Positions 2,729-41,185 of a stretch of 64,000 bases of DNA are shown in pieces. Each line of letters begins with the position of its first letter. Position 1 is the stretch's first letter. This DNA is from Chloropicon primus (Eukaryota), in NCBI GenBank assembly GCA_023205875.1, contig CP060773.1, positions 186,001 to 250,000 on the forward strand, in the 5' to 3' direction. Position numbers and translations under genes: made by a program. The notes beneath the pieces were generated by a model. That model made no database searches and was not told the DNA's origin. It was given only the letters and a program-made list of their open reading frames with translations.

Positions 2729-3882
2729 ATGGACAACGAGGTTGCTGTGTCCCAGGGGGTTGGAGCTGGTGCTCCCTGTGTTGATGTGGAGGAGGATCGG
2801 TGCTGGATCTGTCATGAAGTTGGAGTGGAAGGCAGAGAGCTTCATGTCCACTGCAAGTGTCATTCGCTGAAGGCACACGACGATTGCATTGCCCACTGGC
2901 AGCTCCGTAACGCCGGAACGGATGCCGAAATGAAGTACGTTTGATCATCTTTGTCGATCCTCGTCCATCGATGTGTGCTGACTGATGGGACCTCTCTCTC
3001 TCTCTGTGCAGGTGCAGGCTGTGCTCAATGAAGCTGCCGGACTGGAAGGACACGGCTTACCTGAACGGGACGAGATCCCTTGCCAAGGTGGTGACTTTGG
3101 CCGTCCAAGGTACGCTAGCTAGGTCCAGTCCCCTTCCCTCATGCTCATCATCGTCATCGTCGTCGTTCTGACTGACCAACCGCTTGTGTGTGTGTGCAGT
3201 GAACGGGGTGACCAAGTACATGAAAGTGAAGCTTGGCGGAGAGGAGAAGGCCGAAGAGTTCAAGCAAAAGTTGATCAGAGCTTTTAACTTGCCTTGTACG
3301 ACTCACTTGGACATCGACTTCAGCGTCTCGAACCCTTTCACTGCCGAAGACGTCTTGAAACTCAATGGCATCGGCTCGTACTCAGCTGCTATCCACTGCG
3401 GTGCCCTGATTGACCGAGAGGAGGACGAGGACGAGAAGGACGAGGATCCAGGCCAAGGCAACAGTTCCAAAGGTAACTCCAGCCGAAGGACGAGAACGAG
3501 AACGAGTCCCCTCCCCCTCCAAGGGGAGGAGGAGGACAGCGATACTGAATACAGCAGCAACACCGATACGGACCTGAACACCGACTCTGAAGCCGAGAGC
3601 GAGGAACCCAACTTGAGGGTCTCTTGCATCGACCGGTACGAGAGGTTGAGGCAGAGGAGACGGGAGAGGATCTTGCGAGAGCAACAGGAGCTTCGACAGG
3701 ACTCTCGAATCACGCAAGAGATTTTGAGCGAAGCCGAGGACAGTGACAGCGAAGGTCAAGTCGACTTGGAGCACATTCCAACATCTTCCAGCCAAGCTTT
3801 TCTGTCCTGCATGAACCTCCTGTGCCCCAAGCTTCGAAGGAAGAGAAGGAGAGTCGTCGGCATCGCCCCGCTCACCATCTAA
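2729..3882 (+). CDS. RING-variant (RINGv/C4HC3) zinc-finger protein, spliced
   Basis: CWIC...HCKC...AHDDCIAHW, intron, CRLC; second intron ~3110-3199; acidic low-complexity C-terminus. Upstream exons are possible. Confidence 0.7.
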
Positions 3883-4028: not shown

Positions 4029-4389
4029 TTACTGCCTGGAAGCTTCTGCCTCCTTCACCCTCTTCTTATAGTCCTTGTACTGGCACAACTCATAGACGTG
4101 CCTCTCGTGCTCGCACCTTCACCAACGAGAAGAATGGACAGAAAGCAAGGGAGAGAAAGAGTCAGTGACACGAGCGTTACCACCTCCGGGCGTTACGATC
4201 GCCAAACCTCCTGCACTTCACAAGAAGAAGAAGAAAGAAGAAGAAAGAAGAGACTTACTTCCATGGCAAGTAGTGCTCCTTCTTCCTGCATTCATTCAAT
4301 GGAATCAGCAAGTGAGCGCAAGTGTCTCGCCAAACTTGAGGAACCTGCGCGTCATCACATGCCTCCTTCGTCGTAGCGAAGCCAGACAT
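4029..4389 (-). CDS. NDUFB7: NADH dehydrogenase 1 beta subcomplex subunit 7 (B18)
   Basis: Exon 1 MSGFATTKEACDDAQVPQVWRDTCAHLLIPLNECRKKEHYLPWK, intron 4117-4258 (GTAAGT..AG), exon 2 CEHERHVYELCQYKDYKKRVKEAEASRQ*. Confidence 0.92.
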
Positions 4390-4496
4390 CCCGCAAAACT
4401 TCTTTCTTTTTCTTCCGCTCCTCGTTTGCTCTTTCCATTGCCAAGGATTGAGAAACATGAAAACCAATCGATTCAGTTGAGAAGAACTTCGTCACA

Positions 4497-4790
4497 AGAG
4501 CGCCATCTTCTTCGTGCGACCACTCATTGGAAAGCTCGCGAGATGCTCTTTCCATCAATTCCTCCCTCGTCCTCTCCCTCTCTTGTTGCCGTCCTCGTTG
4601 TCGCGCTGAAGTTCACTCACTCACCTCGGTGCTCCTCCACCCGTCGCCTCGTGGAAAAGAAAGTGAGACCCCATCGGGCGGCGAGGAACACCGAGGTGAG
4701 TTCAGGGAGCCAGGGGACGACGAGGACGGGGGCCAGAGCGGACGAGGGAGGTATTGATGGAAAGAGCGTCTCGCGAGCTTTCCAATGATC
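4497..4790. repeat. Repeat family C (MITE-like, long imperfect terminal inverted repeats), copy 1
   Basis: CATTGGAAAGCTCGCGAGATGCTCTTTCCATCAATTCCTCCCTCGTCC at the left is inverted at ~4740-4787. Further copies at ~25892-26210 (inverted) and ~52455-52775. Confidence 0.88.
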
Positions 4791-5243
4791 CCTCGCTCGA
4801 CTCGTTTGGTGCTCGGATGGGTCGAGGGATTGACTGGGAGGACTGGATGTGAAGCAGAAACCACCCGAATGCCTAGTCTTATTGAGGACGGTGAAGAAAG
4901 TGACGGCCATGAGAGGGGAAGACGATCGCACGGAACGAAGAGTTGTCTCGCGATGTTCCGATTGGTGGGGCGCAAGCTTGGTTTGGCGTCTTGAGTCGAG
5001 AGGCAGAGAGGGAAAAGGAAGCGAGAAGCTACAGAACTTTTAGGCAGAGGCATTGGGCGTTCACTATAGTGGGTGGACTTGACGTCTGTGTACCTCAAAA
5101 GCTGACCATCTTTTGGTTCCATTAGGATTCACTGGTGTGCGGAGTGACGGAGGCGGTGGTATGACCGAGGACCGTCGGCGTTGAAGGTTGCCACCGGAGG
5201 GAGAAGGAGCGTCGAAAGGGGGGGGTTTCTTTGACGGAGGAGC

Positions 5244-6434
5244 ATGAGTCGAGCTGTGAAGCAGCCCGTGGGGCAGAAGCGGCTGACAAACATCGCCATC
5301 GTAAGGTACAAGACGCACGGGATACGTTTCGAGATCGCTTGCTACAAGAACAAAGTGTTTGACTGGAGGAGCGGCAGCGAGCAGGACCTTGATGAAGTGC
5401 TCCAGACGGACCAGGTGTTCTCCAACGTGTCCAAGGGAATCATGGCAAAGGAGAAGGACCTGAAGAAGGCTTTTGGCAAAAAGAAATCCATGGAAGAGGT
5501 CTGCAAGGAGATCCTGGCCAAGGGGGAGCTCCAGGTGAGCGACAGGGAGAGAGCCCTCCAGTTGGACTCGAGGCTTCGAGATGTGGCCAGCATCATCGTC
5601 GAGAAGTGTGTGGACAGCATCACGAAGAAGCCATTCCCTCACGCTCTCGTCGAGAGGGCGTTGAAGGATCCAAAAATCAGATTCATACCGGATAACCGAA
5701 AGTCCGCGAAGCAGCAGATGCTTGAGATCGTGCCCAAGCTGCAGGAACACAAAGTGCTCAACATCGAAAGAGCGCGGATGAGAGTCCAGCTGACGGTCCA
5801 CAGCAAGGGCATGAAGCAAAAGGTCTTGGAGCAGCTTCAGGCGAAGCCTCTCGCGGACACGTGCCAAGTGGAAAGGGAGAAGGAGGAGGAGGGGGAGGAG
5901 GAGGGAGCAGGAGCATCGAGCTCCGACGACGGGGGTCTGTACACGTACTGCTGCGTGCTGAAGATCGAGCCGGGGTCCTTCAGAGCCATCGATTCGATCG
6001 TGAGGGGGAATACGGCCAAGGAAAACATGGGAAGGCTCGAGGTTCTTGATTTAGCCGTGCACAACGACTCTTCTGCTGCGAATGGAAATGGCAGGGAAGC
6101 TGGTGGTAGTGCTGGTGCCCCGGGAGGCACCACCAGCAGCCCCGCCTCGTTGAAGTCCTTAGGGAAAGGAATCCAATCGATGGGGCTGACCGGGGACCAA
6201 ACAATTGCAGTGGCCTCGGCCGCTACTGCCGTGGTCGGTCGGTTCAAGTGCAATACCTGCCAAGTGGGTTTCGACGACTCCAAGCAGCACCGGGAGCACT
6301 TCAAATCGGATTGGCACAGGATCAACCTGAAAAGAAAGTCCCAAAAGCTGCCCATCTTGTCTCAGGAAGAGTGCGAGGCGATCGCGCTGATGGAGTCATC
6401 CGCGGCGTCAGACCTGGACGATTTTGCGTTCTAA
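5244..6434 (+). CDS. SBDS: Ribosome maturation factor SBDS with C-terminal C2H2 zinc finger
   Basis: QPVGQKRLTNIAIVRYK..RFEIACYKNKV..DLDEVLQ..VFSNVSKG; C-terminal CNTC..HFKSDWHRINLKRK as in plant SBDS. Confidence 0.96.
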   Translation: MSRAVKQPVGQKRLTNIAIVRYKTHGIRFEIACYKNKVFDWRSGSEQDLDEVLQTDQVFSNVSKGIMAKEKDLKKAFGKKKSMEEVCKEILAKGELQVSDRERALQLDSRLRDVASIIVEKCVDSITKKPFPHALVERALKDPKIRFIPDNRKSAKQQMLEIVPKLQEHKVLNIERARMRVQLTVHSKGMKQKVLEQLQAKPLADTCQVEREKEEEGEEEGAGASSSDDGGLYTYCCVLKIEPGSFRAIDSIVRGNTAKENMGRLEVLDLAVHNDSSAANGNGREAGGSAGAPGGTTSSPASLKSLGKGIQSMGLTGDQTIAVASAATAVVGRFKCNTCQVGFDDSKQHREHFKSDWHRINLKRKSQKLPILSQEECEAIALMESSAASDLDDFAF

Positions 6435-28364: not shown

Positions 28365-29588
28365 TCAATCGATGAGGTGGCTCACGTCCGCCGTCCCAAG
28401 CTTGCCGCTGTAACTCCCGTTCCACACCTGCTTGGCGAACGTCTCGTTGGGAAGAATGATGCTGAGCATGTAGAGCTTCTCGGCAGCGTCAGGATTGACG
28501 ATGGAATGAACGTTCTTCGGCTTCACGAGAAGCGTGTCGCCCTCCGCACCCGTGACTGGCTCGTCGCTCTGATTCAGGTACAGATCCGCCCTTCCCGAAA
28601 GCACGATGAACAGCTCGTAGGCCTCGTCATGCAGGTGCCTTGGTATCACGCCCTGTGGATCCAAGATCTCGATGCTGCACGTGAAAGGGGTGCAATCCCG
28701 GAAAGGGTCGAAGACCGGAGCTATCCTGTTGTTCATGCTCGGCAATTGAAACGTCAGCAGCTCGGCCGTCCTCCGCAACCTGGAGCTCAGCAGGCAGCTT
28801 TCCGTTTCCTGCTGCTTGAGCTTGATTTGCGCCGGAACGTCCATGGAGTTCCTCCTGTCCACCGGAGAAGAAGATCGCCTGTGATCCATCGACCAGGTCT
28901 TGCTTCCCCCTCCGGCCCCTTGGGCGGCAATCACACCCTTGTGCGCCGCAAGTGAGACCGGGACGGATATGCTCAACATGACCATCCCTTCCTTCCCCCC
29001 GCCCCCCCGCGATTCTCCCCCCCTCGTCTCTATAGCGTAAGGCACCCTCGGAGCTATCGCAAAGATGTCCCCGGACTCGAGCTCCACCACGTCGCTGACT
29101 TTTGTCGACTCCGTCCCGAAGGACAAGTGGCCCAGCCGCCCGCTGCCGGAGAGGATGTAATACACGTGGTAGCAGTCCACTTCCACCCTCACCCTCGACC
29201 TCTCGGAGCTGGCGGACGCCTCCGACCCTCCCAAGCCAGCTTCATCTGCAACGAGCTCGAGCTCCACGCCAAAGGGGCTGCCTTCCCCGTCCCGACTCCG
29301 CTTCAACACGGTGTCGACGAGCCTTCCTCTGTCATCCTTCAACCACTTGTGGTCCTTACTCGAGAGCAACCGAGCCAAACTTCGCTCCGGCCTTTCGCAC
29401 ATCCTCTCCCTTCGGTCATTCCCCCCCGACCTCGCCCTCTGCGACTCTCTCCCCCGCCGCCTCACCGGCCTCGCACCACCGGGGACACCTAGGCTCCCCG
29501 TCGTCGTCGCCCTGCCACCCCTGTTGATCATCCTCAATGAATCAAGCACAAAACCAAAAAAGGGAGATAAACCGGTCGTGCTCCCCAC
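28365..29588 (-). CDS. Double cupin-domain protein
   Basis: VYYILSGSGR..LESGDIFAIAPRVPYAI and IPRHLHDEAYELFIVLSGRA..GDTLLVKPKNVHSIVN. The true start may be the ATG near 29531. Confidence 0.8.
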   Translation of the reverse strand: MGSTTGLSPFFGFVLDSLRMINRGGRATTTGSLGVPGGARPVRRRGRESQRARSGGNDRRERMCERPERSLARLLSSKDHKWLKDDRGRLVDTVLKRSRDGEGSPFGVELELVADEAGLGGSEASASSERSRVRVEVDCYHVYYILSGSGRLGHLSFGTESTKVSDVVELESGDIFAIAPRVPYAIETRGGESRGGGGKEGMVMLSISVPVSLAAHKGVIAAQGAGGGSKTWSMDHRRSSSPVDRRNSMDVPAQIKLKQQETESCLLSSRLRRTAELLTFQLPSMNNRIAPVFDPFRDCTPFTCSIEILDPQGVIPRHLHDEAYELFIVLSGRADLYLNQSDEPVTGAEGDTLLVKPKNVHSIVNPDAAEKLYMLSIILPNETFAKQVWNGSYSGKLGTADVSHLID

Positions 29589-29831
29589 TAATCGAAAGAT
29601 ATCGAGTCAATTCTTCGCTCCGTAACGCCCTCGCCCTCCGGATCCACCTCCCTCGCCCTCCACTGCGTCACAAAGTCACGCCACTCCTGCTCCTGAAGCT
29701 CTGCCCAATGCCTTGATGACCAAAGTTGGCGACCACTCCGGTTGCCAAACGAGTCGAGTGAGGGCTCGTTCGAAAGAGAAAGAGATGTTCTACCGCGATG
29801 CGTTGTCGTCTTTCCCTCTCACGCTCTCGTT
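29545..29831. repeat. Repeat family B, inverted copy truncated at 29831
   Basis: Reverse complement of ~754-1040. Similarity stops abruptly at 29831, next to the Fanzor 3' region. Confidence 0.9.
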
Positions 29832-30018
29832 ACCGTCAATAATCGACGACGGGAAATATCTTTCTCTTCTGCAATATCTTTCTCTTCTACAACGGTAGGG
29901 AAATCACAGTCAATACTGGAAGCACAAAGGCAAGTTCTCCTTTCCACTGAAAGAGAGAAACACGGAGAGAAACACGGAGAGAAACAGCCCCTTTCTTGAC
30001 GGCCCGGCCACAACTTAC

Positions 30019-30171
30019 CTGTTAGTTTTCTGCAAAGGTCGTTTCACCGAGTTTGTAAGTTTCTCGGCAGGGTAATTCGGCCCTACCACGACCATTCCAC
30101 CGTACATGAACGAATACTTCCGCCCACGCACGGCAGCCCGTACTAACAAACGTATGTGCAACCCTGAGGAG
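30019..30171 (-). ncRNA. Putative Fanzor omega-RNA (fRNA/reRNA) scaffold
   Basis: Directly 3' of the Fanzor stop. Complementary segments: 30142-30148 with 30020-30026 (UGUUAGU/ACUAACA); 15-bp hairpin 30100-30133; multibranch stem 30088-30093/30037-30042 enclosing two hairpins (GGUAGGG/CCCUGCC, CCGAG/CUCGG). Confidence 0.7.
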
Positions 30172-32268
30172 TTACACACTTTTTGGTTGACGCAAGTGCT
30201 TCAGGAGGACGTTGCGTGCCCCGTTCACATCCCGACCGCACTTGAAGCCACACTTCTGGCACTTGTACACCTCTGCTCCACCCAGGTTGTCCTTGATGTG
30301 TCCGCACCTGCCACAGGTCTTGGAGGTGTACTCCTCCGTCACGATCGCCAGCTCACTGCCGTGCAAGAGCACCTTGGAAGCCAAGAACGTTCTGAACGCA
30401 TAGTGCCTCAACGTCAAGAGCGTGCGAGCCGTCTTCTTCCTGATCACTCGGCGTCTCCCGTTGTTGTTCTTCTTCACCATGTCTTGGGACTTGAACTCCG
30501 GGAGGAGGATTGTGTCGAACCTCCTGCATAGATCGTTGGCTACCTTTTTGTGAAGCTCGTTCGTCAGACCTCGAAGTTTCTCCATGCAGGCGTATTGCTG
30601 TCTCTTCAAGTCGCGGCGGTCGAGGTAAGGGAGCTTCACCTTTGGGTCTTTGCGCTCGGAAATGATCCCATCAATCCTCCAGCAGAGGTTGAACAGCCTC
30701 GCGAAGCCTCGCTCGCCCGTGGCATACTCCCCGACGCCTTCTTGCGGCGAGTACGACGTCTGAAAGGTCCTGACTCCCGGATCCAGGGCGACAACCTTCC
30801 GCTTGTTCTCAGGCTTCAGGGGTGGCAGGCGATCCCATGGCGTCGCGATGGGAATGTGCATGTGGAACTGCCCAAGGCGATTTCTTGTGATCTTCACGGC
30901 ACCCTCGATCTTGCCCCCGGGGATCTCCTCCGTCAAGTACAGGGGCCCGCCGGCCATCTTCTTCTTGAACACCTCCAGCTTGGTCCACTTGCGTCGTTTC
31001 TTGTGCTTCGTATCATCCTTGTGTCTCGTGTTTGGCCTTTCGATCGTCTCCACGTTCTTTAACTCTCTTGCATCAATTTCAATGGTCCAAGAACTCGGTT
31101 GCTGACGTTGACGATACTTGAGAACGAAGCGGTGCCCCTTCTCCTCGCCGCGCTCCTTCATCGCTTCCTGCTTCGCGGTGTTCGAATCCCATGCCTTGAT
31201 GAGACTTCGCACGGCAGCTTGTCTGATGGCACAGGGGGTATCCTTCAGCCAAGGATGCTTCTGATTTACAAAGGCCCCGCTAACGTAGTCCCGGTCCTTG
31301 CCCACTTGGATGCGAAAAGCTCTGCCTCCAATTTGGCTCTCGAGTCTGTTCTCTCTGGCCGCGAAAAGCTCTGCCTCCTGTTTTGTCCATGGCCGTGGAG
31401 AGCATTGGATTTCTTTCAGCTCTTTCTTCAGGCCCTGAAAGACCTCAGGGCCTCGAGGTTTGGCCGTCACAAATCTGTCCAGCAGGACGGTCCAAACCAG
31501 CGGAAAACGCTCCTTCTTGACCGCCTCCAAACACTTGTTGTATGTGAAACGCGCAGCTCCCATCCAGTTGCAAAGGCACTTCGCCTGCTCAGGGTTCAAG
31601 CGCATCCTCAGCTTCCTCGTCCGTATCACCGTTCGCTCCGACAATAGCTTGGAGGTCTTCAGTTTCTGCCCCCTCTTCCTTTTGGCGGGCGGCTGCAATG
31701 TCTCGACGGATACCACAGAATCTTCTGGAAGGTTCAAGCACGACCTCCATCCCGTCTTCGGACACTTTACCTCTTCAAGTTCTCTCTTCATCGATGAGAA
31801 CCAGGTCTTCTTCACGCTGTCGTCCGCCAAGCCACCCGGCTGCTTCCCTGCTTTCTTCCCCCTCTTGTTCTTCTTCTTCTTACCCTTCTTCTTGTTCTTC
31901 TTCTTGCCCTTCTTGCGAGGCTTCTTGCGAGGCTTGCCTGACGAGCTCGAACTCTCACCCGCAGAGGAAGCCGCCTCCGGCGGCTTCCCCTTCTCCTTCC
32001 GCTTCCCCCCCCGCTTCTTGCGAGGCGTGCTCGAACCCTCACCCGCAGAGGCGGGGTCGTCCGCGATAGGAAGCAGGCACAACGAGTAGAGCAACTGCAA
32101 GCCCTGATTCCAGAACCGACGTAACGGCCGCTCCGTCGTCGGAGACTCCTGCCCCGACTTCGAAGCGCCCTGAGCATGACTCTCGCCAGAGTGCGACCTC
32201 CTTGTGGAACTCGTCGAGCCACTCCCCTGCTTCTCCTTTTTCTTACGGCGCTTCCCTGATCGCGCCAT
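30172..32268 (-). CDS. Fanzor2 RNA-guided endonuclease (IS607-type TnpB derivative), 698 aa
   Basis: RTRKLRMRLNPEQ..WMGAARFTYNKCL (OrfB HTH); RuvC-I VVALDPGVRTF; ILLPEF with Pro at the canonical Glu position and shifted Glu in VTEEYTSKT; zinc finger CGRC..CQKC; RuvC-III RDVNGARNV; K/R-rich N-terminus. Confidence 0.93.
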   Translation of the reverse strand: MARSGKRRKKKEKQGSGSTSSTRRSHSGESHAQGASKSGQESPTTERPLRRFWNQGLQLLYSLCLLPIADDPASAGEGSSTPRKKRGGKRKEKGKPPEAASSAGESSSSSGKPRKKPRKKGKKKNKKKGKKKKNKRGKKAGKQPGGLADDSVKKTWFSSMKRELEEVKCPKTGWRSCLNLPEDSVVSVETLQPPAKRKRGQKLKTSKLLSERTVIRTRKLRMRLNPEQAKCLCNWMGAARFTYNKCLEAVKKERFPLVWTVLLDRFVTAKPRGPEVFQGLKKELKEIQCSPRPWTKQEAELFAARENRLESQIGGRAFRIQVGKDRDYVSGAFVNQKHPWLKDTPCAIRQAAVRSLIKAWDSNTAKQEAMKERGEEKGHRFVLKYRQRQQPSSWTIEIDARELKNVETIERPNTRHKDDTKHKKRRKWTKLEVFKKKMAGGPLYLTEEIPGGKIEGAVKITRNRLGQFHMHIPIATPWDRLPPLKPENKRKVVALDPGVRTFQTSYSPQEGVGEYATGERGFARLFNLCWRIDGIISERKDPKVKLPYLDRRDLKRQQYACMEKLRGLTNELHKKVANDLCRRFDTILLPEFKSQDMVKKNNNGRRRVIRKKTARTLLTLRHYAFRTFLASKVLLHGSELAIVTEEYTSKTCGRCGHIKDNLGGAEVYKCQKCGFKCGRDVNGARNVLLKHLRQPKSV

Positions 32269-32496
32269 GACTGCTAGGGTTTCACTCGCCGTCCTCGTCC
32301 CTCGTCCCTCGCGACAAACTCAACCGATCGATCGATCGTCTGCCAACTCGAACTGACGCTGCTCTCTCTCTCTCTCGAGGCGCGAAAATGTTTTCAAATC
32401 CCCCCCAAAAGAAGCGAAATCACTTGTAAATTTATTACACTCGTTTCGATACACAGGGCGAGGTTTGTTTTTCAGGGGAGGGGGTCGAACTCTTCG

Positions 32497-32670
32497 TTCT
32501 GGTGGATTTCTCCCTTCCGCTGAACCATCATAACGGCCGAGCACGAGGGCGAACCAGGAGGAGGGAGAGAGAGAGAAGGGGGACGGGAGAGCGCGGAGGA
32601 GGAAGAGGGAGGCGGAGGACCGGACAGAAGGAAGCGTCGTCTCGTGCTCTTTCGAAAGAGCCCTCGCTCG
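32497..32670. repeat. Repeat family E
   Basis: Reverse complement of ~58335-58503 (TGGTGGATTTCTCCCTTCCGCTGAACCATCATAACGGCCGAGCACGAGGGCGAACCAGGAGG...); partly present again at 40051-40190. Confidence 0.85.
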
Positions 32671-32716: not shown

Positions 32717-33710
32717 ATGGCGGTGACAGGGGGAGCGAGCAAGAGGCAGAGGACGGAGGGATGCGCTGGAGGTGCTTCCCGAGTGGGCGTGGTTCCTGGT
32801 CTTGAAGCAGCTGGACGATTACGACCACCTTGCTTTTGGGGTTGACCTGCAGGACGTTCCTCGAGGCGGTGACGAAGGCGACGAGCCCCGAGGAGAAGAA
32901 GAAGGCTCGCCTGAGGACGGACCTGTCGCAAGAGAAGTTGTTCGATCAGGTGCCTTCCTTCACTTTGGGTTGGTACCAGCGGATGTTCCAATCGTTCAAA
33001 AGGAAGAAGTCTCGGAGATTTGAAAGAAAGAAGGGAGCACGGTTCAATTTTGTACCTCTGTATGGACACTCCAACTACTTGTACCTCTCCGACTACACGT
33101 ACGACGTCGAGCTGATGTACCTCGCCGCTTTCCAGGGCAGCAAGAAGGTGATGAAGTGGCTGGTGAGCCAAGGGATCCCTTTGGGTATCATTCTTCGCGG
33201 TTTACCTCATGAGGAGCGGTAGCAGTTGAAAGAGCTGCTGAAGGAGGTCACATTGATGTTCTGGAATGGTTGAGGAGCGAGGGGTGCGGGTTTGGTGAGG
33301 AGGCTTGTGCGGGTGCAGCTCGAGGAGGCCACCTTGACGCTCTGCAGTGGCTTCGAAGCCTGGAACCGCCTTGCCGTTGGAGCGGGTGGACTTCTTTTAG
33401 TGCAGCTCAAGGAGGCCACCTTCATATTCTCAAGTGGCTTCGAAGCCTGGATCCGCCTTGCCCTTGGGACGTGGAGACTTGTGAATATGCAGCTAGAGGA
33501 GGTCACCTTGATGTTCTCAAGTGGGCTCGTAGCCAGCGTCCGCCTTGCCCTTGGAACAAGAATACTTGTTGGCAGGCAGCTGAAAGAGGTCACTTTCATG
33601 TTCTCAAGTGGCTTCGAAGCCAGCATCCGCCTTGCCCTTGGAAACCAAAGAAATGCAAAATCGTAACCCGAAACCCGAAAGTCGTCAAGTGGATCCAGGA
33701 GAACTCTTAA
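32717..33710 (+). pseudogene. Frameshifted F-box-like/ankyrin-repeat gene (AAxGGHLxxLKWLRSxxPPCPW repeats)
   Basis: The reading jumps frame near 32757, 32838 and 33205, joining MAVTGG.. / DALEVLPEWAWFLVLKQL..LAF / GLTCRTF..LMYLAAFQG / AAEGGHIDVLEWL plus 4 further ankyrin-like repeats. Confidence 0.75.
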
Positions 33711-33807
33711 CCAAGACAATGTCTCACCAACCTGTCATCGACTTTCCTTTCCTGGTTTCTCCTCCTTTCTCCTTTCTCCTCTCTGATCGATGCTGGGCAG
33801 CAGGTCG

Positions 33808-34170
33808 ACCGAGGAGGGGAAAGAACGAGAACGAGATAGATGGCGAGAACGAGAGTGTGAGAAGGAAAGACGACAACGCATCGCGGTAGAACATCTCTTT
33901 ATCTTTCGAACGAGCCCTCACTCGACTCGTTTGGCAACCGGAGTGGTCGCCAACTTTGGTCATCAAGGCATTGGGCAGAGCTTCAGGAGCAGGAGTGGCG
34001 TGACTTTGCGACGCAGTGGAGGGCGAGGGAGGTGAATCCGGAGGGCGAGGGCGCTACAGAGCGAAGCGTTGACTCGATATCTTTCGATTGGTGGGGCGCA
34101 CGACCGGTTTCTCTCCCGGAACAAGGGTTTGCTTGAGTTGTGAAGGCACGAGAGAGGACACGGCAAAGGG
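33808..34170. repeat. Repeat family B, direct copy
   Basis: Near-identical to 720-1075. Confidence 0.92.
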
Positions 34171-39818: not shown

Positions 39819-40050
39819 TTAGCGGGCAGTCGGAGTGGAGGCTTGAGCTTGCTTCGAAATCATTTGGAAAGAAAGTAAAAATAGTGATAGTAACAGGATA
39901 GATCGATTCGATAGAAAACGCGGGCTCGCTTGTGGGAAGCACTAGCACGTCACCTCGATTGGACGGAGACTGATCCTTCACCAAGAAGACAACGTTGTCT
40001 CACGAGCTAGACCTTTGCTTTCCCCGTCTCCTCATGCGTCATCATGAATG

Positions 40051-40630
40051 ATAACGGCCGAGCACGAGGGCGAACCAGGAGGAGGGAGAGAGAGAGAAGG
40101 GGGACGGGAGAGCGCGGAGGAGGAAGAGGGAAGCGGAGGACCGGTCAGAAGGAAGCGTCGTCTCGTGCTCTTTCGAAAGAGCCCTCGCTCGAAGAGAACG
40201 ACCCGGTGGTGAGGATCTGAGGAGCACGGGCGTGAAGATGGCGGTGACAGGGGGAGCGAGCAAGAGGCAGAGGACGGAGGGATGCGCTGGAGGTGCTTCC
40301 CGAGTGGGCGTGGTTCCTGGTCTTGAAGCAGCTGGACGATTACGACCACCTTGCTTTTGGGGTTGACCTGCAGGACGTTCCTCGAGGCGGTGACGAAGGC
40401 GACGAGCCCCGAGGAGAAGAAGAAGGCTCGCCTGAGGACGGACCTGTCGCAAGAGAAGCCGCCTTGCCCTTGGGACCGGTGGACTTGTACGTACGCAGCT
40501 TCAGGGGGTCACCTTGACATTCTGCAGTAGGCTCGAAGCCAGAATCCGCCTTGCCCTTGGAACCCAGTGGAATGCAGATCCGCAGCGAATCGTCACCCGA
40601 AAGTCCTCAAGTGGATCCAGGAGAACTCTT
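40051..40630 (+). pseudogene. Internally deleted duplicate of the ankyrin pseudogene
   Basis: 40051-40458 is a near-identical 408-bp copy of 32530-32937, joined directly to degenerate ankyrin repeats ending ...GTGGATCCAGGAGAACTCTT as at 33708. Confidence 0.88.
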
Positions 40631-41185
40631 CACAACACAAACGAATCGCTTGTCACGTTGCATTGCGCCCTCCCCCCCCCTCCTCCATGATCCTCCTCTT
40701 TTTTGCCGCCATGTGCATCTAATTTCCCTTCCCCATGTTTTTAGTCTCCCCAAACCACACCACAGCATTTCGAGAAAAAAGATTGCAGATATTCTTCCAA
40801 CCACGGTGGTTCGGCATCATTCATCGCTTGACCCCGGCGCCCGTTGCGGAACTGAAGGTGAGTGACGACGACGATGACGATGACGATGACGAGAAGCGCG
40901 ATGCACACCTCCTCCGCATCCCTCCCTCCATCGCTTCCGCTTCCCTCCATCCATCCATCCATGCTTTCCTCCTCACCAACGCTTGCGAAGATGTGTGTGA
41001 TGCAACATGCATGCACCCTCGACGACCTCCACGACACCGTGACTAACTCCTTCCATGCTCCTGCTCCTTCTCTGTCTCTCTTTGCTTCTGCTGCTGCTGC
41101 TGCTTTCTGCCGAATACCCGCACTGCTCTGCACGTAACGCACGCCCGTGCGTTACAAAGAAGAAACCAGAAACCACAAAGGCATC

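What the first reader, a model, noticed from the sequence alone, without database searches (positions are those of the whole stretch)
30019..32268. Intact stand-alone Fanzor2 RNA-guided nuclease with an adjacent omega-RNA-like structure
Seen: a 698-aa intron-less ORF with the OrfB HTH, DPG RuvC-I, ILLP, VTEEYTSKT-CxxC...CxxC and RDxNGA, plus an extremely K/R-rich NLS-like N-terminus, followed at once by a heavily base-paired ~150-nt non-coding tract. Known: DPG plus Pro at the canonical RuvC-II position and a Glu shifted next to the zinc finger mark Fanzors and IS607-type TnpB, whose guide RNA scaffold lies 3' of the ORF. Inference: a potentially active programmable nuclease in an algal nuclear genome. 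No serine-recombinase TnpA is in the window, so it is non-autonomous or domesticated.
Basis: partly seen in the sequence, partly recalled or inferred. Interest (0 to 1): 0.9.

Follow-up and report, generated by a model that had tools for sequence, protein, structure and literature searches.

The report
Algal Fanzor2 with splice-site guide
This is one copy of an already described jumping-gene family of a tiny marine green alga, encoding a likely working RNA-guided DNA cutter whose predicted guide RNA begins exactly at a splice-site sequence that is likely used, so it may get its target address in an unusual way.

Summary
The 698-aa ORF has an intact rearranged RuvC triad (D496, E645, D680) and zinc finger, and ApmFz2 is its best PDB match by sequence and fold. 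A strongly folded RNA follows (z -3.8). It is not new and not domesticated: it is 96-98% identical to the multi-copy Chloropicon primus Fanzor2* family, published as a non-autonomous TIR/TSD transposon (PMC10711439). (1) The N-terminus descends from DNA that in relatives also encodes IS607 TnpA in another frame; here that frame has 5 stops and is split by the K/R block. (2) The scaffold ends at 30019, directly before GTAAGT. Repeated DNA runs on to at least 29892, so the guide looks element-internal rather than flank-derived. Putative RNA contigs from three studies stop at 30018/30019 while DNA contigs from three studies continue, a weak hint of splicing at the guide boundary. This copy shows no TIR/TSD pair, and its ends look rearranged. 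No cleavage, TAM or small RNA was tested.

The parts
30172..32268 (-). Fanzor2 ORF, 698 aa
30781..30783 (-). RuvC-I D496 (DPG), aligns to ApmFz2 D324
30334..30336 (-). Shifted RuvC-II E645, aligns to ApmFz2 E467; P590 stands at the canonical position
30229..30231 (-). RuvC-III D680, aligns to ApmFz2 D501
30250..30315 (-). C4 zinc finger C652/C655/C670/C673
31513..31626 (-). HTH_OrfB_IS605 region (residues 215-252)
31840..32028 (-). K/R-rich block (residues 81-143), predicted disordered, NLS-like; holds an internal duplication and varies in length in frame among paralogues; lies between the two halves of the TnpA remnant
31629..32215 (-). Decayed IS607 TnpA (serine recombinase) remnant in the overlapping frame; 5 stop codons, no YxRVS motif
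   Evidence: a broad TnpA profile did not detect it
30019..30185 (-). Predicted omega-RNA scaffold; 5' limit unknown; hairpin over the stop codon, then a multi-branch domain closed by a long-range stem
30019..30026 (-). 3' arm of the closing stem (ACTAACAG), pairs with 30142-30149; same position as the AACGG scaffold end of IS607 elements
30004..30018 (-). Guide position in unspliced RNA; starts with the 5' splice-site consensus GTAAGT; the same sequence follows the scaffold in contigs of two wild metagenomes
29892..30018 (-). Repeated, unstructured 3' extension beyond the scaffold; candidate intron, with a pyrimidine-rich CAG acceptor ending at 29947 and another AG at 29887
29855..29892 (.). 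18-bp tandem duplication at the right junction of this copy
32285..32488 (.). 204-bp piece that lies inside a single-copy 17-kb contig in DNA runs X1 and X2; it overlaps the element's left part by about 18 bp (32285-32302), behind which other copies continue with different sequence
32717..33715 (+). Neighbouring frameshifted ankyrin-repeat pseudogene of a multi-copy family (second copy at 40048-40640)
29562..29838 (.). 277-bp dispersed repeat, inverted partner at 33841-34117, third copy at 747-1023; not shown to be this element's TIR

Best explanation
This is a copy of the published multi-copy Chloropicon primus Fanzor2* element: it encodes a likely active RNA-guided DNA nuclease and a predicted omega-RNA scaffold, it has lost its own transposase, and its guide is likely a fixed stretch of element DNA that starts with a splice donor, so splicing likely competes with guide formation. 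Shown: intact triad, zinc finger and fold; multi-copy family; a TnpA frame broken by 5 stops; GTAAGT directly after the scaffold end; repeated DNA continuing at least 127 bp. Inferred history: an IS607 unit with overlapping tnpA/tnpB was fixed at its GG end in front of a splice-donor sequence inside a larger repeat, lost TnpA, gained a K/R block inside the dead tnpA, and spread with that carrier using a transposase supplied in trans. Inferred mechanism: unspliced transcript would be trimmed to scaffold plus a guide from 30018 downward; the complex would cut DNA where that sequence follows a matching TAM, that is carrier copies or alleles that lack the Fanzor unit, and repair from an occupied copy would keep the gene. 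Spliced transcript would serve mainly as mRNA. This copy's own ends look rearranged, so it is likely immobile but may still supply protein and RNA.
For: Triad maps to ApmFz2 D324/E467/D501 and is invariant in 116 of 116 aligned sequences. Model pLDDT 81.6, pTM 0.79; top fold match 9b0l, E 5e-20. 96-98% identity to C. primus paralogues; 21 of 23 listed C. primus proteins, the window's own included, match the triad pattern. Element unitigs in DNA run X1 have depth 2640-3573 against 98-132 for unique contigs (the tool warns that depth is no copy number). The closing stem has pair probabilities 0.87-0.94 and 6 of 6 standard pairs in 4 of 4 sequences, with two-sided changes. The tested ISXfa1 scaffold ends in GAACGG; relatives end AACGG or GCCG, this copy AACAG. 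DNA contigs of X8 and X9 run through 30018 to 30004, X1 depth stays at 4194-5608 over 29838-30019, and a deletion derivative carries nearly the same sequence after its scaffold end. AG|GTRAGT follows 19 of 9331 AG in the window. Putative RNA contigs of X4 and X6 stop at 30019 and of X5 at 30018.
Against: No cleavage, TAM, small RNA or raw reads were examined. The three RNA runs are only guessed to be RNA and are contigs; X6 carries another organism label with no matching DNA run. No empty carrier was seen: one search lists two joints and neither skips the element, and the window holds no extended match to the guide. The published text says TIR and TSD appear to form part of the scaffold in Fanzor2*, which would put the element end at the scaffold end; the figures that define the algal ends could not be seen. 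No TIR/TSD pair was found at this copy. The stem motif was chosen after looking at the four sequences, so one search is not an independent test. NCBIfam guided_TnpB scores 90 bits, below its cut-off of 100.
Confidence: 0.5

Rival explanations
1. Splice-programmed guide: the DNA between the scaffold and the element's right end is a spliceosomal intron; its removal joins the intact scaffold to downstream host sequence, which would give each copy a locus-specific guide and restore homing.
For: The donor falls exactly on the scaffold/guide boundary. X6 depth drops from 362 to 5.9 and then 0 below 30019, while DNA run X1 stays high. An X5 contig joins the scaffold to 46 foreign nt absent from the window. 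X4 and X6 contigs end without loose letters, which fits a branch into several continuations. Other copies continue beyond 29892 with a sequence that reads as a long U run on the transcribed strand. Only 1 of 94 related loci has GGTRAGT within 260 nt of the stop. Deposited gene models join Fanzor ends to host exons at two loci, though at other donors.
Against: No splice joint to 29946 or 29886 is listed in any run (one search shows 15 of 35 joints). The deletion derivative is read through its donor in X4 and X6. The single foreign junction could be a genomic insertion flank. A spliced guide's target would also exist on the occupied allele unless the TAM discriminates. IS607 inserts at GG, so landing in an existing AG|GT junction explains the donor without any role in guiding.
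Confidence: 0.25
2. Biochemically intact but biologically idle passenger (or a copy on the way to host use): the fixed guide has no useful target, and the ORF is intact only because the family is young.
For: Several paralogues carry internal deletions or truncations (P0003, P0004, P0123, P0127). A highly covered deletion derivative lacks RuvC. No target found in the window.
Against: TnpA-less or TnpA-dead relatives at 53-60% identity keep the triad. Length variation in the N-terminus of paralogues keeps the frame. About 25 copies argue against a domesticated single gene.
Confidence: 0.15
3. Conventional Fanzor2*: the element ends at 30019/30018, the guide is ordinary flank, and 29892-30018 is a separate repeat in which some copies happen to sit.
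For: Published statement that TIR and TSD appear to lie in the Fanzor2* scaffold. RNA contigs branching at 30019 and the X5 foreign junction also fit variable flanks.
Against: The same 15 nt follow the scaffold in the window and in X8 and X9 contigs, nearly the same in a deletion derivative, and X1 depth does not fall at 30019. No 5-nt TSD with a TIR fits this end.
Confidence: 0.1

Closest known systems
Chloropicon primus Fanzor2* element (Yoon et al. 2023, PMC10711439 and its preprint; passages, sections 23, 24 and 26 and supplement text read, figures not seen)
   Same: Same family: 96-98% protein identity to C. primus paralogues; UPR03652, UPR02811 and UPR04245 are in that paper's Table S3 and in the clusters found here; only the Fanzor is encoded.
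   Different: This copy shows no TIR with 5-nt TSD. The passages read do not mention a tnpA remnant, an element-internal guide or a splice donor. No biochemical test of the algal protein appeared.
ApmFz2, Acanthamoeba polyphaga mimivirus Fanzor2 (PDB 9b0l; PMC11832414, passages read)
   Same: Rearranged D-E-D triad, zinc finger, disordered NLS-type N-terminus before a structured N-terminal domain, long-range pairing that closes the scaffold.
   Different: 18% structural identity; ApmFz2 sits in an IS607 element with TnpA; this protein is 178 aa longer.
IS607 pro-Fanzor TnpB such as ISXfa1 (PMC10711439)
   Same: DPG and shifted Glu; scaffold end of the AACGG type.
   Different: Bacterial, with an intact serine recombinase and a variable flank-derived guide.
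IStrons, IS607/IS605 elements with a group I intron (10.1101/2023.11.20.567912, passages read)
   Same: Works-like analogy only: splicing at the element's right end competes with omega-RNA formation.
   Different: There a self-splicing intron's 3' splice site lies at the right end and splicing removes the scaffold; here a spliceosomal 5' site would keep the scaffold and replace the guide. No group I intron here (one search found no Rfam match in 29800-30400).

Membership tests
Fanzor2 / pro-Fanzor clade | DPG in RuvC-I and Glu six residues before the zinc finger | tested here: met
Fanzor2 / pro-Fanzor clade | TnpB-like fold closest to Fanzor2 | tested here: met
   Fanzor1 (8gkh) is not among the listed rows
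Fanzor2 / pro-Fanzor clade | Phylogenetic placement among IS607-associated Fanzor2 | tested here: inconclusive
   nested (support 99) with TnpA-bearing loci L083, L084, L086; FastTree, 66 of 96 candidate rows, only 3 prokaryote rows, no named Fanzor1/Fanzor2 references and no outgroup
Fanzor2 / pro-Fanzor clade | Structured omega-RNA 3' of the ORF with conserved end pairing | tested here: met
   predicted only, 4 sequences; the relatives' own folds are weak (z -1.5 to -1.8)
Fanzor2 / pro-Fanzor clade | Eukaryotic nuclear context and N-terminal NLS | tested here: met
   host genes around it, C. primus paralogues, K/R block; import not tested
Fanzor2 / pro-Fanzor clade | RNA-guided, TAM-dependent DNA cleavage | not testable with these tools
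   needs bench work
IS607 element | Intact serine-recombinase TnpA | tested here: not met
   5 stops and no YxRVS motif in the remnant frame
IS607 element | Right end at the GG scaffold end with variable flank | tested here: not met
   repeated DNA continues past 30019 in X1, X8, X9
C. primus Fanzor2* TIR transposon | Near-identity to the family's proteins; multi-copy | tested here: met
C. primus Fanzor2* TIR transposon | Degenerate TIRs and 5-nt TSD at this copy | tested here: not met
   one search found no convincing pair in 29840-30040 against 32269-32560; other copies diverge from the window at 29892 and 32302, so this is filed as a rearranged copy of the family, not a complete element
Domesticated Fanzor | Single-copy, syntenic, free of repeat context | tested here: not met
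   synteny not testable, no genome held
IStron | Group I self-splicing intron in the element | tested here: not met
   no Rfam match in 29800-30400; the rest of the element is open reading frame

The most novel reading that the evidence does not exclude
A eukaryotic RNA-guided nuclease whose guide is written by the spliceosome: the element's right arm is an intron that starts at the first guide nucleotide, and splicing joins the intact omega-RNA scaffold to downstream host sequence, giving each of about 25 copies its own guide.
Probability: 0.25. Interest if true: 0.82.

Novelty: already known. Interest (0 to 1): 0.42.

Why it matters
As first described it is one more copy of a published family, useful only as an apparently untested green-algal Fanzor2 for tool mining. 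It still matters in two ways. The N-terminus shows how a Fanzor2 can keep the second reading frame of tnpA after the transposase dies and grow an NLS-like block inside it. And if the splice donor at the guide boundary is used to form guides, it would show how a Fanzor captured by a transposon with long ends keeps a flank-derived guide, and it would be a natural splice-programmed guide RNA. Public RNA-seq reads and the finished genomes can test this at once.

Tried and rejected
No whole genome is held, so copies could not be aligned. A TIR plus 5-nt TSD search at this copy gave nothing convincing. The 277-bp inverted repeats at 29562-29838 and 33841-34117 were considered as TIRs of a 4.5-kb composite element and set aside because a third, longer copy sits at 714-1077. 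A TnpA profile built from 134 ORFs of 239 loci found no remnant in the window; the remnant shows only against close relatives, and not against L087. A synonymous-codon shuffle did not show that the open +1 frame over tnpA beats chance in single loci (P 0.07-1.0 in 6 loci). Rfam: no match. MAFFT misaligned the four omega-RNAs and the 5' half of the N-terminal DNA, so no covariance model was built. A scan of viral contigs for the scaffold-end motif gave 0 matches; viral and prokaryotic relatives are 25-48% identical at best. The X5 foreign 30-mer is not in the window. Splicing to the internal acceptor at 29947 is not supported by any listed joint. The resemblance of that spliced guide to the abundant TTGGAAAG motif (7-8 nt) was judged chance. 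A supplement search of PMC6731263 for IS605 found nothing in 12 of 20 files. Lack of contig cover in parts of X5, X8 and X9 was not used as evidence of absence.

Full report
Observation. The ORF at 30172-32268 (-) is an uninterrupted 698 codons. Pfam finds the OrfB HTH (215-252) and the TNB zinc-finger domain (622-687) above cut-off; NCBIfam guided_TnpB scores 90 bits, under its cut-off of 100. The best PDB match by sequence (E 2.7e-19) and by fold (E 5e-20; model pLDDT 81.6, pTM 0.79) is mimivirus Fanzor2, 9b0l. Counting along the alignment, D496, E645 and D680 fall on its catalytic D324, E467 and D501. These three, P590 and the four cysteines are invariant in 116 of 116 aligned sequences. 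Residues 1-47 and 74-151 are predicted disordered.

Identity. The protein is 96-98% identical to proteins deposited as 'putative IS605 transposase' of Chloropicon primus and lies in a cluster of 46 members. The genome paper counts 25 such genes (PMC6731263, passages). Yoon et al. (PMC10711439) describe the C. primus Fanzor2 as Fanzor2*, carried by a cut-and-paste transposon with degenerate TIRs; the preprint adds a variable 5-nt TSD and that no autonomous partner was found. Their Table S3 lists three paralogues from the clusters found here. So the element is known and not domesticated. A search for Fanzor with Chloropicon gave 5 papers, listed as 2 works; I read only the Yoon paper of these, and saw no biochemical test of this protein.

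RNA scaffold. 30019-30200 folds with z -3.80 (0 of 200 shuffles) and better than 66 of 66 GC-matched tiles. Folding 30018-30185 gives a hairpin over the stop codon and a multi-branch domain closed by 30142-30149 pairing with 30019-30026, at pair probabilities of 0.87-0.94. The same two motif halves occur in 3 of 104 related loci, all among the four best metagenome matches, with 6 of 6 standard pairs in each and two-sided changes in L080 and L083. The motif was chosen after seeing these sequences. The tested ISXfa1 scaffold ends in GAACGG (supplement text); relatives end in AACGG or GCCG, this copy in AACAG at 30019. By that analogy the guide starts at 30018.

Dead transposase in the second frame. 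In 77 of 80 tnpA-tnpB pairs found among 239 related loci, the nuclease frame is the +1 frame of tnpA, and the open overlap has a median of 189-222 codons by collection. A per-locus codon shuffle did not show this to beat chance. Two earlier notes of this scan report the same overlap. In the window the matching frame aligns to relatives' TnpA (tblastn E 5e-15 with L081, 3e-4 with the intact L084; resolvase identity). Restricted to the resolvase part, the score beat all 200 shuffles for 4 of 6 relatives, tied for one and failed for one. A broad profile missed it. The frame has 5 stops and no catalytic motif. The K/R block sits between the two aligned halves. In the tree (FastTree, 66 of 96 rows, unrooted) the window groups with L081 (stop at the catalytic serine), L080 (5'-truncated tnpA) and L082 (none found), and L083, L084 and L086 with intact TnpA motifs form the sister group. 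Inference: the N-terminus descends from dual-coding DNA and outlived the transposase. The similarity is partly a by-product of conservation in the Fanzor frame. The word 'overlap' does not occur in PMC3627910, and the passages seen concern other matters.

Element ends. In DNA run X1, depth stays at 4194-5608 over 29838-30019 and falls to single-copy level after about 32300. Contigs from metagenomes X8 and X9 run from the scaffold to 30004, and X9 and X1 show a break at 29892. A deletion derivative joins 31740 to a scaffold end followed by nearly the same sequence. So the repeated unit extends at least 127 bp beyond the scaffold and the guide position looks fixed. Other copies continue differently beyond 29892 and 32302, both times with an A/T run, which may be the degenerate TIRs; that is a reading of short loose ends only. 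In this copy an 18-bp tandem duplication marks the right junction, a 204-bp piece that is unique elsewhere in X1 and X2 abuts the left, and no TIR/TSD pair was found. It looks like a rearranged copy, though strain differences could contribute.

Splice donor. The scaffold end reads CAG|GTAAGT. AG|GTRAGT follows 19 of 9331 AG in the window, and 1 of 94 related loci has GGTRAGT within 260 nt of the stop. A pyrimidine-rich CAG lies 72 nt downstream (61 of 2485 YAG have at least 17 pyrimidines in the 20 nt upstream). Contigs of three runs guessed to be RNA, from three studies, stop here: X4 and X6 at 30019 without loose letters, X5 at 30018 with 46 foreign nt. X6 depth falls from 362 to 5.9 to 0. 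The tool rates such a pattern a weak hint. Against: no splice joint is listed, the deletion derivative is read through its donor, X6 has another organism label, the X5 junction may be genomic, and a poly(A) site could also end contigs. Searches for a described case (listings only) returned none; the nearest analogy is IStrons (passages).

How it most likely works. By established TnpB/Fanzor biology, protein and omega-RNA come from one transcript and cut DNA at TAM plus guide match, and repair from an occupied copy preserves the element. Here I judge it most likely (0.5) that unspliced RNA gives a fixed guide aimed at carrier copies lacking the Fanzor unit, with splicing yielding mRNA. Rivals are a splice-programmed guide (0.25), an idle passenger (0.15) and a conventional flank guide (0.1). 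Confidence that it belongs to the known Fanzor2* family is about 0.97.

Papers seen. PMC10711439: outline, passages, sections 23, 24, 26, supplement text and table rows, no figures. Its preprint 10.1101/2023.08.09.552727: passages; supplement closed. PMC6731263, PMC12301720, PMC10530073, PMC3627910, PMC11832414, PMC10432273 and 10.1101/2023.11.20.567912: passages only. Splice-site consensus and the general homing model are recalled knowledge, the latter also stated. The unseen figures may already define the algal ends and bear on the internal-guide claim.

Verdict. Real, correctly identified, already known as a family; moderate interest from a cheaply testable oddity at the guide boundary.

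Noticed in passing
P0030 (947 aa) and P0067 (921 aa): XPG/Exo1-family nuclease fused in one ORF to a Fanzor2 with DPG, shifted Glu and final Asp; the two are 51% identical over their whole length, so the fusion is conserved. It could couple a guided cut to end resection. None of the 10 papers listed mentions Fanzor.
   Followed up: partly
loci L001-L239: 77 of 80 tnpA-tnpB pairs have the nuclease in the +1 frame of tnpA, with about 200 codons of open overlap, in viral, metagenomic and bacterial loci.
   Followed up: partly
window, 24 sites from 543 to 58335: Motif CTC[AGT]TT[CG]GAAAG occurs 24 times against 0 in base shuffles, mostly inside 150-590-bp dispersed, partly fold-back repeats between genes; promoter element or MITE family. 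Several of these repeats also hold AG|GTGAGT.
   Followed up: partly
window 31740 junction, runs X4 and X6: An internally deleted derivative joins the N-terminal third to the scaffold's last bases; its contig depth in X6 (363) exceeds that of the full-length contig beside it (77).
   Followed up: no
P0004, P0146, P0135, P0136: Deposited gene models join Fanzor C-termini to an ankyrin-family tail or to a SET-domain protein that is also deposited without the Fanzor; may be predictor artefacts or real chimeric splicing.
   Followed up: partly
window 32717-33715 and 40048-40640: Two broken ankyrin-repeat genes share 411 bp at 99% identity, including the upstream region; the family is high-copy in DNA runs.
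   Followed up: partly
L082:749-830, 1335-1416, 3311-3393 and 1047-1318, 3392-3662: A TnpA-less relative is flanked by 83-bp inverted repeats starting just after its stop codon and by a 272-bp direct repeat: perhaps an independent capture.
   Followed up: no
L081:486-503: Close relative whose TnpA has a stop codon exactly at the catalytic serine while the Fanzor frame stays open.
   Followed up: yes
window 5244-56000: Ordinary host genes nearby: SBDS, ClpB, serine acetyltransferase, HSP20, UCH, PLAC8, cupin, amine oxidase, BET domain, AMG1.
   Followed up: no
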